Made by a program: the position numbers. From NCBI RefSeq assembly GCF_053078305.1, contig NZ_CP166879.1: a stretch of 64,000 nt of DNA; one strand, given 5' to 3'. Below, one piece after another: positions 9,001-12,000 of the stretch (position 1 is the first letter of the stretch; each line of letters begins with the position of its first letter).

Positions 9001-12000
9001 GGCTGGCCTGCGTGCCGATATTCTTTCTCCTGTCAAAGAAACCGGCACATTGCTGGGCGTGGTAAGTTCACAAGCGGCGGAACTCTGCGGTCTGAAGGTG
9101 GGCACTCCGGTGGTCGTTGGAGGAGGCGACGTGCAGCTTGGTTGCCTGGGGTTAGGCGTTGTGCGTCCGGCACAAACCGCGGTTCTTGGCGGCACATTCT
9201 GGCAGCAAGTTGTAAATTTAGCCGCGCCGGTGACAGACCCAGAAATGAACGTGCGCGTTAATCCTCATGTTATTCCTGGCATGGTACAAGCTGAATCTAT
9301 AAGCTTTTTTACCGGACTCACCATGCGCTGGTTCCGCGATGCTTTCTGTGCCGAAGAAAAACTGATTGCCGAACGTTTAGGCATCGACACCTATACGCTG
9401 CTGGAAGAGATGGCCAGTCGGGTGCCGCCTGGGTCGTGGGGCGTAATGCCGATCTTCTCCGACAGAATGCGCTTTAAAACCTGGTATCACGCTGCGCCTT
9501 CCTTTATTAATTTGTCCATTGACCCGGATAAATGTAACAAAGCGACATTGTTCCGTGCGCTGGAAGAAAATGCGGCGATTGTATCAGCGTGTAACTTGCA
9601 GCAAATTGCTGATTTTTCGAATATTCATCCTTCATCGTTAGTCTTTGCAGGCGGAGGTTCAAAAGGGAAATTATGGAGTCAAATTCTCGCTGATGTCTCG
9701 GGATTACCCGTCAATATTCCGGTGGTCAAAGAAGCCACTGCATTAGGATGTGCCATTGCAGCTGGCGTCGGTGCCGGAATTTTTTCATCAATGGCAGAAA
9801 CCGGAGAACGCCTGGTTCGCTGGGAACGGACGCACACACCAGACCCGGAAAAGCATGAACTTTATCAGGATTCACGCGATAAGTGGCAGGCAGTTTATCA
9901 GGATCAGCTGGGGCTGGTTGATCATGGACTGACGACGTCGTTATGGAAAGCGCCTGGGTTATAGTTTCATTGACAGCCACATCATGATGACCGTGGCTGT
10001 TAGTTTTTGAGTATAGTTATTCTTATTTCCCTTCTTTTAGAACTGGCTTGTTAAATGCCAGCTTGCAGATTCATCGTTCCATCACCAGTAATATATTCAA
10101 GGGAAAATTGCTATTTTTCTTAAAGCATTAAGCATAACCCTTATTTTATAACGAATATTCCTAAAGGCATTAATGGATGAAGAAGGGGTTTAATAAACCT
10201 CGTTTTTTAGCAATTAGTGCTATTCTTTGTTAAATATGATGATGATAATTTTCTTATTGAAAGAAACAGTTTTCTTATTAAGCAGCAATAACTCATGATT
10301 CATTTTTAAATAAAATAAGAACTATGCAATTTTTAATCTATCAATTCGAAAGCATTAGCAAATTAGCCAAATTGACACCTTCCCACCTCCAACTAACACT
10401 CAATACAGACCTCTGACAATTTAATAAGTTTCATTTTTAATGTCTGGCGACTCATCTCTTTCGTGGCTGTATTGTTTGTATATGGAGCGTTTATATGAAT
10501 AGAATCTATCGCGTGATATGGAATTGCACTCTACAGGTATTTCAGGCCTGCTCTGAATTAACTCGCAGGGTAGGTAAAACATCAACGGTTAATTTGCGTA
10601 AATCCTCTGGACTGACAACGAAATTCAGTAGATTGACGCTGGGTGTTTTGCTGGCACTAAGCGGTTCAGTGTCTGGTGCGAGTCTGGAAGTTGATAATGG
10701 TCAGATTACCAATATTGATACTGATGTTGCTTATGATGCCTACCTGGTTGGCTGGTATGGCACTGGAGTGCTTAATATTTTGGCTGGCGGTAATGCCGCC
10801 TTAACCACTATTACTACCAGCGTCATTGGCGGTAATGAGGATTCGGAGGGTACCGTTAATGTTTTGGGTGGCACCTGGCGATTGTATGATAGTGGAAATA
10901 ATGCAAGGCCTTTAAATGTGGGTCAATCCGGAACGGGGACGCTGAATATTAAACAGAAGGGTCACGTCGATGGAGGCTATTTAAGATTAGGTACACAAGC
11001 TGCAGGCGTCGGGACGGTTAATGTTGAGGGAGAGGACTCGGTTTTGACGACCGAATTATTCGAAATAGGGAGTTACGGTACGGGCTCATTAAATATTACG
11101 GATAAGGGTTACGTCACGAGTTCAATAGTCGCCATTTTAGGATATCAAGCGAACAGTAATGGTAAGGTTGTCGTTGAAAAGGGTGGCGAGTGGCTAATAA
11201 AAAATAATGATTCCTCAATTGAATTTCAAATTGGTAATCAAGGAACTGGGGAGGCGACTATTCGCGAGGGTGGGCTGATTACGGCTGAAAATACGATTAT
11301 CGGTGGCAATGCCACCGGTATCGGAACCCTGAATGTGGAGGATCAAGACTCTGTCATCACGGTACGCAGACTCTATAATGGATATTTCGGTAATGGCACA
11401 GTCAATATTTCCAATAATGGACTGATTAATAACAAAGAATATTCATTGGTGGGCGTTCAGGACGGTTCCCACGGTGTCGTCAACGTGACCGATAAAGGGC
11501 ATTGGAATTTCCTCGGAACGGGCGAAGCTTTCCGCTATATCTATATCGGTGATGCTGGCGACGGTGAACTTAATGTCTCGAGTGAAGGCAAAGTAGATTC
11601 GGGAATTATCACTGCGGGGATGAAAGAAACAGGCACAGGCAACATTACTGTTAAGGATAAGAACTCCGTTATCACTAATCTCGGAACTAATCTTGGTTAT
11701 GACGGCCACGGCGAAATGAATATCAGTAATCAGGGGCTTGTTGTCAGCAACGGAGGAAGTTCACTCGGTTATGGAGAAACCGGCGTCGGGAATGTCAGCA
11801 TCACCACGGGGGGAATGTGGGAGGTCAATAAGAATGTCTATACCACCATTGGTGTTGCGGGCGTCGGAAACCTCAATATTAGCGATGGCGGTAAGTTCGT
11901 ATCGCAAAATATTACTTTTTTGGGTGATAAAGCAAGCGGTATCGGCACATTGAACCTGATGGATGCGACATCGTCGTTCGATACTGTGGGTATCAATGTC

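What the first reader, a model, noticed from the sequence alone, without database searches (positions are those of the whole stretch)
9965..10494. 530-bp strongly AT-rich tract upstream of the autotransporter
The tract has no ORF of significant length and contains many A/T runs, which is typical of H-NS-bound silencing regions in front of horizontally acquired adhesin genes. It may hold the autotransporter promoter.
Basis: inference. Interest (0 to 1): 0.3.

Follow-up and report, generated by a model that had tools for sequence, protein, structure and literature searches.

The report
H-NS-silenced promoter region of autotransporter yneO
The AT-rich stretch is the E. coli spacer between the quorum-sensing kinase gene lsrK and a cryptic adhesin gene (yneO, ECSE_1600 family), and published work on K-12 and ETEC already shows it as an H-NS-bound "promoter island" with a MarA binding site, so the finding is correct but ordinary.

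Summary
Window 9965-10494 is exactly the 530-bp lsrK-to-autotransporter spacer of E. coli. Its GC is 31.7% against 48.2% for the window, the lowest of any 530-bp stretch in the 64 kb. The longest ORF is 30 aa.

- It is one of 78 "promoter islands" and is H-NS-bound in all three ChIP studies compiled (PMC3661553).
- Genomic SELEX finds H-NS, sigma-70 and sigma-S holoenzyme binding (PMC3946193, PMC5493296).
- A strong MarA ChIP-seq and in-vitro site matches window 10206-10220 exactly (PMC5684230).

My additions:
- An lsrRK intrinsic terminator lies at 9969-10009.
- Comparison across three genomic contexts (E. coli, Pseudocitrobacter, one unidentified contig) shows three conserved blocks in otherwise random-level AT-rich DNA: the marbox, a TTGACA-17-RACACT promoter (predicted start about 10407), and a 5'UTR/Shine-Dalgarno block.
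- There is no Rfam hit and no conserved small ORF.
- IS1 and IS5 insert in the tract in other strains.

The role of the distal marbox, about 194 bp upstream of the predicted start, is unresolved. Verdict: already known, low interest.

The parts
8372..9964 (+). lsrK (autoinducer-2 kinase), the upstream flanking gene and last gene of lsrRK
   Evidence: 530-aa ORF. NCBIfam NF008187 at 998 bits. RefSeq annotation of homologous records.
9965..10494 (.). The whole 530-bp AT-rich lsrK-yneO intergenic spacer, which is the finding
   Evidence: GC 31.7%, lowest in the window. Present with at least 80% coverage in 4013 of 5426 complete E. coli genomes.
9969..10009 (+). Intrinsic terminator of the lsrRK operon: a 12-bp stem with core CAGCCAC/GUGGCUG, followed by UUAGUUUUU
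   Evidence: RNA fold gives -17.4 kcal/mol, z = -4.3, and 0 of 200 shuffles fold as well. Segment 9975-10004 is invariant (pi = 0) and 10005-10034 has pi 0.004 in the 11 E. coli sequences. The consensus terminator scan missed it because the loop is long.
10062..10406 (.). Equivalent of the published K-12 'promoter island' 1596197_345 (U00096.2), reported as H-NS-bound in vivo
   Evidence: PMC3661553 Table 1. The window coordinates come from my own conversion (offset about +1977 to U00096.3, reversed orientation) and are accurate to a few bases. My own PWM scan gives 21 promoter-like sites in the tract, 3.2 times the window mean and at the 97th percentile.
10150..10163 (.). Palindromic AACGAATATTCCTA, resembling an RcsAB box. 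This is a lead only.
   Evidence: It matches 11 of 14 positions of TAAGAAT-ATTCTTA as quoted in PMC4381331. The core GAATATTCCTAAA is also present upstream of the marbox in L024. The window-wide count of such matches is not above chance.
10206..10220 (-). Marbox GCACTAATTGCTAAA, a MarA/SoxS/Rob-type site. It starts 289 bp upstream of the ATG and reads TTTAGC...GTGC in the direction of the autotransporter gene.
   Evidence: The identical 15-mer is the MEME site of a MarA ChIP-seq peak in ETEC H10407 and binds purified MarA at 0.3 uM (+++) (PMC5684230). I located it at H10407 1717104-1717118, inside the orthologous spacer. It is the only zero-mismatch GCAC-N5-GCTAAA match in the 64 kb. It is conserved at -284 in Pseudocitrobacter and -290 in L024.
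10372..10400 (+). Best candidate core promoter: -35 TTGACA (10372-10377), a 17-bp spacer, and -10 AACACT (10395-10400). The predicted start is about 10407, giving an ~88-nt 5'UTR.
   Evidence: It is the highest-scoring promoter-like site in the tract in my PWM scan (11.6). TTGACA, the 17-bp spacing, (A/G)ACACT and the following CAAnACAGAC are conserved in all three genomic contexts, and the core TTGACA-17-AACACT is unchanged in the 11 E. coli sequences. No start-site data could be reached.
10413..10441 (+). Alternative promoter CTGACA-17-TTTAAT, as predicted by Shimada et al. for the sigma-70 SELEX peak
   Evidence: PMC3946193 Table 2. PWM score 8.8. The hexamers are not conserved in Pseudocitrobacter, and in L024 the -35 reads CTCATA and the -10 TTCCAA.
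10452..10494 (+). Conserved 5'UTR block TCATCTCTTTCGTGGCnGTnTTGTTTnTATATGGAGCGTTTAT, with Shine-Dalgarno GGAG at 10484-10487, 7 nt before the ATG
   Evidence: There are only 3 substitutions between E. coli and Pseudocitrobacter, although the protein N-terminus is only 82% identical. It is single-copy per genome and present in 4088 of 5426 E. coli genomes. It has no significant RNA structure (z +1.1 to +1.5).
10495..15915 (+). ECSE_1600-family (yneO/ydeK-ydeU) AIDA-I-type autotransporter. It is intact here at 1806 aa.
   Evidence: ORF. NF011422 at 4135 bits against a cutoff of 2335; Pfam ESPR, PATR, Pertactin, AC_1, Autotransporter. It is a pseudogene in MG1655, an O157:H7 strain, H10407 and several others.

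Best explanation
The tract is the regulatory spacer of the cryptic, horizontally mobile autotransporter-adhesin gene yneO (ECSE_1600 family), placed directly after the lsrRK operon.

Reading left to right:
1. An intrinsic terminator (9969-10009) ends lsrRK transcription.
2. About 400 bp of very AT-rich, TpA-rich DNA follows. It binds H-NS (reported in vivo and in vitro for the K-12 orthologue) and also attracts RNA polymerase non-productively, as a 'promoter island'. This keeps the adhesin gene silent under laboratory conditions.
3. Inside this region, about 289 bp upstream of the ATG, sits a high-affinity MarA/SoxS/Rob box (10206-10220).
4. The gene's own promoter is most likely TTGACA-17-AACACT (10372-10400). 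It has a consensus -35 and a weak -10. It would give an unstructured ~88-nt leader whose last ~43 nt, including the GGAG Shine-Dalgarno, are strongly conserved.

What is shown: composition, gene identities, terminator fold, the sequence conservation blocks, and identity of the marbox to the published MarA-bound site.

What is taken from the literature on orthologous sequence: H-NS, sigma-70, sigma-S and MarA binding.

What is inferred: which hexamers form the real promoter, and that the distal marbox acts by relieving H-NS silencing rather than by contacting RNA polymerase. The marbox is about 194 bp upstream of the predicted start, too far for class I or class II activation.
For: Composition and coordinates.

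Locus identity.

H-NS: PMC3661553 Table 1 lists the ydeK/lsrK spacer as a promoter island bound by H-NS in all the ChIP studies it compiles and as foreign-associated. PMC3946193 flags an H-NS SELEX site in the spacer.

RNA polymerase: a sigma-70 SELEX peak and a sigma-S SELEX peak. My PWM scan finds 21 promoter-like sites, 3.2 times the window mean.

MarA: a ChIP-seq peak and +++ in-vitro binding at an identical 15-mer, mapped into the orthologous H10407 spacer.

Terminator: plus invariance.

Footprints: the marbox lies at -289/-284/-290 and TTGACA at -123/-118/-123 in E. coli, Pseudocitrobacter and L024. These are three different upstream neighbours: lsrK, bluR, and a Fer2-family gene. The 151 bp between the marbox and the -35 is at random-level identity between E. 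coli and Pseudocitrobacter when aligned without gaps (27.8% against 30.7% for shuffles).

Within E. coli, overall diversity of the spacer (pi 0.036) is close to that at third codon positions (0.041 and 0.054). However, 9975-10034, 10305-10334 and 10395-10514 are nearly invariant.

Mobility and decay of the locus: different contexts in other genera, absence from about a quarter of E. coli genomes, frequent pseudogenisation, and IS1/IS5 insertions in the tract.
Against: - H-NS, sigma-factor and MarA occupancy were measured in K-12 and ETEC, not in this strain. Nothing here measures binding or expression.
- The strict consensus scan finds no sigma-70 promoter at all in 9800-10700 (0 found against 2.6 expected). 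Neither candidate has a good -10.
- No transcription-start data could be retrieved.
- The high-affinity H-NS motif of Lang et al. (recalled from memory) is not enriched (2 matches with up to 2 mismatches, 78th percentile). AA/TT dinucleotides show no helical phasing. H-NS binding would therefore rest on general AT and TpA richness.
- The marbox position and orientation do not fit known MarA activation geometries, and no MarA-dependent expression of yneO is reported in the papers I could read.
- The outgroup sample is only two lineages.
Confidence: 0.8

Rival explanations
1. The real autotransporter promoter is the one Shimada et al. assigned, CTGACA-17-TTTAAT (10413-10441), with a start near 10448 and a ~47-nt leader. 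On this reading TTGACA-17-AACACT is one of many non-productive promoter-like sites.
For: It is listed as the best-match promoter for the sigma-70 SELEX peak in the yneO<lsrK spacer. It scores 8.8 in my PWM scan. Its -35 and -10 hexamers are unchanged in the 11 E. coli sequences; one spacer position differs in L010.
Against: SELEX-chip resolution does not identify hexamers, so the assignment is a sequence prediction. The -10 lacks the key A at position 2. The hexamers are not conserved in Pseudocitrobacter and are altered in L024, whereas TTGACA-17-RACACT is conserved in all three contexts.
Confidence: 0.25
2. The tract has no function of its own. It would be neutrally drifting AT-rich DNA next to a decaying gene, with protein binding as a by-product of composition.
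For: Spacer diversity (pi 0.036) is close to that at third codon positions. The gene is frameshifted or truncated in many strains. IS1 and IS5 insertions and a deletion of the tract are tolerated. Promoter islands are reported to be transcriptionally almost silent.
Against: Three discrete blocks (marbox, -35/-10 region, 5'UTR) are conserved at fixed distances across genera and across three unrelated upstream contexts, while the sequence between them is randomised. The chance of an exact GCAC-N5-GCTAAA in a 300-bp AT-rich spacer is about 3e-4 by my estimate. The marbox binds MarA in vivo and in vitro. The gene is intact at full length here and in several strains.
Confidence: 0.1
3. The tract hides an unannotated small gene, leader peptide or small RNA.
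For: Several short ORFs are intact in all 11 E. coli sequences. One is 10440-10502 (20 aa), which overlaps the autotransporter start codon. Another is 10324-10416 (30 aa). A weak hairpin plus T-run lies at 10185-10210.
Against: - There is no Rfam match, even at E up to 1.
- There is no annotated feature in MG1655 RefSeq.
- Neither the 10440-10502 nor the 10324-10416 ORF has a Shine-Dalgarno sequence.
- The 10440 ATG is absent in Pseudocitrobacter.
- The 18-aa ORF at 10177-10233 does have a Shine-Dalgarno sequence, but it is broken in 3 of 11 strains.
- The 10185-10201 hairpin lies in the most variable segment (pi 0.09-0.10) and is not conserved in L024.
- The leader RNA is less structured than shuffles.
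Confidence: 0.05
4. The marbox drives its own MarA-dependent promoter. This could be a second, far-upstream autotransporter promoter or a minus-strand transcript antisense to the lsrK 3' end, rather than acting on H-NS.
For: The site has high affinity in vivo and in vitro. On the minus strand the box is in 'forward' orientation, and a promoter-like site TTAACA-18-TAAAAA overlaps it (10233-10204). Of the 33 MarA peaks, 15 lie within 150 bp of a sigma-70 peak.
Against: No -10-like element is conserved at class I or class II distance on either strand among the three lineages (by inspection). In Pseudocitrobacter a minus-strand transcript would run straight into the bluR terminator. The overlapping minus-strand site would be occluded rather than activated by MarA.
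Confidence: 0.15

Closest known systems
E. coli K-12 'promoter island' ydeK(-)/lsrK(-) (Shavkunov/Panyukov/Ozoline) and H-NS xenogeneic silencing regions in general
   Same: It is the same locus: a 530-bp spacer between lsrK and yneO with 19 differences in 530 bp from K-12. It is AT-rich, has a high density of promoter-like sites, is reported to be H-NS-bound in all ChIP sets, and sits next to a gene predicted to be foreign.
   Different: In this window the downstream autotransporter is intact, whereas K-12 yneO is a pseudogene. H-NS occupancy has not been measured in this strain. No phased A-tracts and no enrichment of the Lang motif were found.
mar/sox/rob regulon marbox (MarA target 'yneO' of Sharma et al. 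2017)
   Same: The 15-mer GCACTAATTGCTAAA is identical to the site at the centre of a MarA ChIP-seq peak that binds MarA at 0.3 uM. It lies at the same position in the orthologous spacer.
   Different: It lies about 194 bp upstream of the predicted start, and no promoter is conserved at class I or class II distance. It therefore does not look like a classical MarA-activated promoter. No expression effect is documented.
H-NS-silenced E. coli adhesin and cryptic loci relieved by AraC-family regulators or by IS insertion (for example bgl; established knowledge)
   Same: There is an AT-rich upstream silencing region, a cryptic surface-adhesin gene, an AraC-family protein site far upstream of the promoter, and IS1/IS5 insertions in the silencing region in natural isolates.
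   Different: No experiment shows derepression here by MarA or by the IS insertions. The analogy is functional and inferred.
RcsAB box (TAAGAAT-ATTCTTA)
   Same: AACGAATATTCCTA at 10150-10163 matches 11 of 14 positions and is palindromic. Its core is conserved in L024.
   Different: The match count in the window is not above chance. The corresponding box in Pseudocitrobacter is at another position and on the other strand. There are no binding data.

Membership tests
H-NS-bound xenogeneic silencing region | AT content well above the genome or neighbourhood average over hundreds of bp | tested here: met
   GC is 31.7% against 48.2% for the window, the lowest 530-bp stretch in 64 kb. TpA steps are at the 97.6th percentile.
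H-NS-bound xenogeneic silencing region | H-NS occupancy in vivo or in vitro | not testable with these tools
   This is literature only, on the K-12 orthologue. It is bound in the Grainger, Kahramanoglou and Oshima ChIP sets (PMC3661553) and in genomic SELEX (PMC3946193).
H-NS-bound xenogeneic silencing region | Derepression of the adjacent gene when hns is deleted | not tested
   No accessible paper reports yneO/ydeK expression in an hns mutant, and supplements were not held.
H-NS-bound xenogeneic silencing region | Adjacent gene horizontally acquired or mobile | tested here: met
   The 58-nt leader query (10440-10497) has no match in about 25% of complete E. coli genomes, and the SE11 genome paper reports no ECSE_1600 orthologue in three B2 strains. 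The gene is found behind bluR in Pseudocitrobacter and beside a Fer2-family gene in L024. It is flagged as foreign by Nakamura et al., as cited.
Promoter island (Panyukov & Ozoline) | Exceptionally high density of predicted transcription start points over at least 300 bp | tested here: inconclusive
   My approximate PWM gives 21 sites per 530 bp, 3.2 times the window mean and at the 97th percentile. The original PlatProm algorithm was not run. The K-12 orthologue is on the published list. The strict consensus scan finds none.
MarA/SoxS/Rob marbox | Match to the asymmetric consensus GCAC-N5-(G/A)YYAAA | tested here: met
   GCACTAATTGCTAAA has zero mismatches and is the only such site in the window.
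MarA/SoxS/Rob marbox | Binding by MarA | not testable with these tools
   This comes from the literature. A ChIP-seq peak and +++ in-vitro binding are reported for the identical sequence in ETEC H10407. I verified its position in the orthologous spacer.
MarA/SoxS/Rob marbox | Position and orientation compatible with class I (backward, about -50 to -70) or class II (forward, overlapping -35) activation of a promoter | tested here: not met
   The box centre is about 194 bp upstream of the predicted start at about 10407 and about 234 bp upstream of the alternative start. No conserved -10 lies at the right distance on either strand. The geometry rules are recalled from Martin et al. 1999.
Intrinsic (Rho-independent) terminator | Stable GC-containing hairpin followed at once by a U-run, located just after a stop codon | tested here: met
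   Coordinates 9969-10004 fold at -17.4 kcal/mol with z = -4.3 and are followed by UUAGUUUUU. The hairpin starts 5 nt after the lsrK stop codon. 9975-10004 is invariant in the 11 E. coli sequences.
Any Rfam RNA family (sRNA, leader, riboswitch) | Covariance-model match | tested here: not met
   There are no matches with E up to 1 in 9000-11500 on either strand.
RcsAB box | 14-bp inverted repeat TAAGAAT-ATTCTTA near a promoter, bound by RcsAB | tested here: inconclusive
   The site at 10150-10163 matches 11 of 14 positions. The count of similar matches is 8 against 5.0 expected in the window. The consensus is taken from PMC4381331. There are no binding data.
CpxR box (GTAAA-N5-GTAAA) | Tandem GTAAA repeats upstream of the gene | tested here: not met
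   There is only one 2-mismatch match in the tract (10026-10040). The window count equals chance (71 against 63 +/- 8).

The most novel reading that the evidence does not exclude
The distal marbox may be a conserved anti-silencing switch. It keeps the same distance from the -35 (166-167 bp) in three genera and genomic contexts, while the intervening DNA is randomised. MarA, SoxS or Rob, induced or activated by antibiotics, salicylate, oxidants or bile-type compounds, would bind inside the H-NS filament and open the cryptic ECSE_1600 adhesin promoter. That would couple the multiple-antibiotic-resistance stress response to surface adhesion or biofilm formation. In Pseudocitrobacter the gene sits beside the bluF-bluR/ymgB locus; a second marbox lies upstream of bluF there, in the spacer corresponding to the MarA-bound ycgF<>ycgZ spacer of E. 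coli. This would be the first case of a MarA-family monomer acting as an H-NS counter-silencer from about -190.
Probability: 0.2. Interest if true: 0.45.

Novelty: already known. Interest (0 to 1): 0.15.

Why it matters
The main value is as a correct annotation. It explains why an intact 1806-aa adhesin gene can sit silent behind the lsr quorum-sensing operon. It also marks where that gene's terminator boundary, promoter, leader and regulator sites lie in this strain.

The only point that goes slightly beyond the literature concerns the MarA box. It and a TTGACA-17-RACACT promoter travel with the gene between genera at a fixed spacing. That gives a concrete, cheap experiment on whether the mar/sox/rob stress regulon can wake a cryptic adhesin.

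Tried and rejected
- **Rfam** scan of 9000-11500 at E up to 1 found nothing.
- **Strict promoter/terminator consensus scan** found no promoter and only a weak, non-conserved hairpin at 10185-10201. I rejected that hairpin as a terminator because it lies in the most variable segment and is absent from L024.
- **Small ORFs of 12 aa or more** on both strands: none is conserved outside E. coli, and the one with a Shine-Dalgarno sequence is broken in 3 of 11 strains.
- **H-NS high-affinity motif** TCGATAAATT (from memory) is not enriched. AA/TT 10-11 bp phasing equals shuffles, so predicted curvature is not supported.
- **CpxR box.** I searched because ydeK was 2.2-fold up in an NlpE array. Matches are at chance level.
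- **RcsAB-like box** is kept only as a lead.
- **Class I/II MarA promoter geometry** was checked by inspection and PWM on both strands, and no fit was found.
- **Transcription-start data.** Thomason 2015 is not held. The Cappable-seq GTF is truncated when stored. The SMRT-Cappable-seq supplements have no hit.
- **ChIP supplements.** The Kahramanoglou supplements are not held, and the Sharma supplement has no mention.
- **Outgroups.** The genome-contig scan gave one true outgroup, Pseudocitrobacter, plus contaminant contigs. Most hits of 62-82% identity from the protein search turned out to be E. coli pseudogene fragments. Only L024 added a third lineage.
- **Paralogous copies of the 5'UTR.** There are none; it is single-copy per genome.
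Full report
**1. What the sequence is**

The window is E. coli chromosome. An ORF of 530 aa at 8372-9964 (+) is LsrK (NCBIfam NF008187, 998 bits). 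An ORF of 1806 aa at 10495-15915 (+) is a full-length ECSE_1600-family AIDA-I-type autotransporter (NF011422, 4135 bits against a cutoff of 2335; Pfam ESPR, PATR, Pertactin, AC_1 and Autotransporter).

The finding's coordinates, 9965-10494, are exactly the spacer between these two genes. In MG1655 the same spacer is also 530 bp (1598087-1598616), between lsrK and the pseudogene yneO (b4696, formerly ydeK/ydeU). A 661-bp query spanning the tract matches 4228 of 5426 complete E. coli genomes, nearly all at 95-99% identity. The annotated neighbours are always lsrK and the ECSE_1600-family autotransporter.

**2. Check of the observation**

GC is 31.7% against 48.2% for the window. Only 0.1% of 530-bp windows are as low, and the window-wide minimum (30.9%) starts at 9996. 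There are 12 A or T homopolymer runs of 4 or more bases and 18 W-runs of 6 or more. TpA steps are at the 97.6th percentile. The longest ORF is 30 aa.

The tract is not uniform:
- 9951-10000 is 50% GC.
- 10201-10350 is 18-26% GC.
- 10351-10400 is 42% GC.

**3. What is published for this spacer**

Four papers bear directly on the orthologous K-12 and ETEC sequence.

- Panyukov & Ozoline 2013 (PMC3661553) list ydeK(-)/lsrK(-), 1596197_345 in U00096.2, among 78 "promoter islands". These are regions with an extreme density of predicted start points that bind RNA polymerase but are almost silent transcriptionally. The paper marks this spacer as H-NS-bound "according to all studies" (the Grainger, Kahramanoglou and Oshima sets) and as associated with foreign genes according to Nakamura et al.. 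By my conversion this island corresponds to about window 10062-10406.
- Shimada et al. 2014 (PMC3946193) report a sigma-70 holoenzyme genomic-SELEX site and an H-NS SELEX site in the yneO<lsrK spacer. They predict the hexamers CTGACA-17-TTTAAT, which are window 10413-10418 and 10436-10441.
- Shimada et al. 2017 (PMC5493296) report a sigma-S holoenzyme SELEX peak in the same spacer.
- Sharma et al. 2017 (PMC5684230) report a MarA ChIP-seq peak in ETEC H10407 assigned to ETEC1580/yneO. The site is gcactaattgctaaa, and it binds purified MarA at the lowest concentration tested (+++).

I located that MarA site at H10407 1717104-1717118, inside the orthologous spacer (1716830-1717359). The identical 15-mer is at window 10206-10220 on the minus strand. 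It is the only zero-mismatch GCAC-N5-GCTAAA match in the 64 kb.

In addition, ydeK was 2.2-fold up in an NlpE-overexpression (Cpx) array (PMC2731931). I found no CpxR box above chance.

**4. Anatomy from my own analysis**

*Left edge.* Coordinates 9969-10004 fold into a 12-bp-stem hairpin (-17.4 kcal/mol, z = -4.3, 0 of 200 shuffles fold as well), followed by UUAGUUUUU. The hairpin begins 5 nt after the lsrK stop codon. Segment 9975-10004 is invariant in 11 E. coli sequences. I take this to be the lsrRK intrinsic terminator. The generic scan missed it because of its long loop.

*Diversity within E. coli.* Across the 11 sequences the spacer has pi = 0.036. Third codon positions of lsrK give 0.041 and those of the autotransporter 5' region give 0.054, so most of the spacer evolves about neutrally. 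Diversity is very uneven. It is 0.09-0.10 at 10155-10214, about 0.006 at 10305-10334, and 0-0.017 from 10395 through the start codon.

*Outgroups.* An 82%-identical orthologue in Pseudocitrobacter vendiensis (L014, with near-identical L019/L020) lies behind bluF(ycgF)-bluR(ycgE), with ymgB upstream. Its AT-rich spacer is 308 bp. A third context (L024, an NCBI contig of unknown organism) has a Fer2-family gene on the other strand and a 416-bp spacer.

*Conserved blocks.* Three blocks are conserved in all three contexts:
- The marbox, TTTAGC-N5-GTGCT on the coding strand, starts 289, 284 and 290 bp before the ATG.
- TTGACA lies at -123, -118 and -123. It is followed by exactly 17 nt, then (A/G)ACACT and CAAnACAGAC.
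- The last ~43 nt of the leader, TCATCTCTTTCGTGGCnGTnTTGTTTnTATATGGAGCGTTTAT, are conserved, with GGAG 7 nt before the ATG.

The distance from marbox start to the -35 is 166, 166 and 167 bp. Yet the 151 bp in between is at random-level identity between E. coli and Pseudocitrobacter when aligned without gaps (27.8% against 30.7% +/- 3.4% for shuffles).

E. coli and L024 also share sequence upstream of the marbox back to about window 10110. This includes a palindromic (C/G)GAATATTCCTAAA.

*Leader.* The leader is single-copy per genome and has no significant secondary structure.

**5. Which promoter**

In my PWM scan, TTGACA-17-AACACT (10372-10400) is the best site in the tract (score 11.6). CTGACA-17-TTTAAT scores 8.8. 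The frequencies in that PWM are approximate and recalled from memory.

Only the first site is conserved across genera, so I favour it. The predicted start is about 10407 and the leader is about 88 nt. This is inference, because no start-site dataset could be reached. Both candidates have weak -10 elements, and the strict consensus scan accepts neither. That fits a promoter that is weak or dependent on regulators.

**6. The marbox**

Its sequence, its published binding and its cross-genus conservation make it a real protein-binding site. Its centre, however, is about 194 bp upstream of the predicted start. I found no conserved -10-like element at class I or class II distance on either strand. 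It therefore fails the positional criterion for a classical MarA-activated promoter.

My working inference, at low confidence, is that it acts on the H-NS complex as a counter-silencer, as other AraC-family proteins do. A separate MarA-dependent promoter and a fortuitous non-regulatory site remain possible.

**7. Things looked for and not found**

- There is no Rfam family.
- No small ORF is conserved outside E. coli. A 20-aa ORF (10440-10502) overlaps the start codon and is intact in all E. coli, but it lacks a Shine-Dalgarno sequence, and its ATG is absent in Pseudocitrobacter. An 18-aa ORF with a Shine-Dalgarno sequence (10177-10233) is broken in 3 of 11 strains.
- The Lang H-NS motif is not enriched, and AA/TT shows no helical phasing. 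H-NS binding would rest on AT and TpA richness.
- An RcsAB-box-like palindrome at 10150-10163 matches 11 of 14 positions of the consensus quoted in PMC4381331. It is only a lead.

**8. Evolutionary context**

The SE11 genome paper reports no ECSE_1600 orthologue in three B2 strains (PMC2608844). The 58-nt leader query has no match in about a quarter of complete E. coli genomes. The gene is frameshifted or truncated in MG1655, an O157:H7 strain, an O111 strain, H10407 and several others. It is intact here and in some strains.

IS elements have landed in the tract in natural isolates:
- IS5 is inserted at about 10116-10123 (L003).
- IS1 is inserted at 10241-10249 with a 9-bp duplication (L005).
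- IS1 lies 7 bp before the ATG, with deletion of the whole lsr side (L004).

All of this is typical of an H-NS-coated cryptic locus.

**9. Verdict**

What I add is modest:
- a precise parts list in window coordinates;
- the lsrRK terminator;
- comparative evidence that favours a different core promoter from the one printed by Shimada et al.;
- the finding that the MarA box and the promoter move with the gene at a fixed spacing.

Novelty is "already known" and interest is low. The most novel reading still open is MarA-family counter-silencing of a cryptic adhesin from about -190. I put its probability at about 0.2.

Noticed in passing
window 10495-15915: The ECSE_1600-family autotransporter is intact here at 1806 aa, a full-length match to NF011422. 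It is a pseudogene in MG1655 (yneO), an O157:H7 strain, ETEC H10407 and even the closest genome found, OkiPb01695, which is 99.8% identical over the tract but frameshifted.
   Followed up: partly
L003 2878-3858; L005 1866-2563; L004 3288-3985 (equivalent to window ~10116-10123, 10241-10249 and 10488): Natural isolates carry IS5 or IS1 inside the tract. In strain 22F46 an IS1 sits 7 bp upstream of the autotransporter ATG, and lsrK through part of lsrF are deleted. The tract looks like an IS landing zone, as at other H-NS-silenced loci. Any effect on expression is unknown.
   Followed up: partly
L014 1283-1297 (also L019/L020): In Pseudocitrobacter the orthologous autotransporter lies just downstream of bluF(ycgF)-bluR(ycgE), with ymgB nearby on the other strand. 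A second perfect marbox (GCACAAATTGCTAAA) lies about 210 bp upstream of bluF. The equivalent ycgF<>ycgZ spacer is a +++ MarA ChIP target in E. coli (PMC5684230). Two MarA boxes therefore flank one biofilm-related neighbourhood.
   Followed up: no
window 10150-10163; L024 upstream region; L014 3774-3787 (-): Palindromic GAATATTCC-type sequences resembling the RcsAB box occur in the upstream regions of all three lineages, but not at the same position or on the same strand. The count in the window is not above chance.
   Followed up: partly
window 18133-18866, 26950-29022, 31286-32279, 38518-39425: There are further low-GC stretches of 33-36% GC or lower in the same window. By synteny with OkiPb01695 and K-12 they fall around the ydeQRST-type fimbrial operon and the ydeP/safA-ydeO acid-resistance region. 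The ydeO/safA and gadB/pqqL spacers are also listed as promoter islands in PMC3661553.
   Followed up: no
window 20364-22364: The fimbrial usher downstream of hipBA appears split into ORFs of 247 aa and 382 aa, as in K-12 ydeT (382 aa). OkiPb01695 has an intact 883-aa usher and a truncated hipA. In the window, hipA looks full-length (ORF 16335-17714). The window's strain is therefore a mosaic relative to its closest match at the tract.
   Followed up: no
L013, L015, L016: Contigs labelled Candidatus Nanosynbacter MAG, Marinomonas sp. and Limosilactobacillus vaginalis carry 90-99% identical fragments of this E. coli autotransporter. These are almost certainly E. coli contamination in those assemblies.
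   Followed up: no
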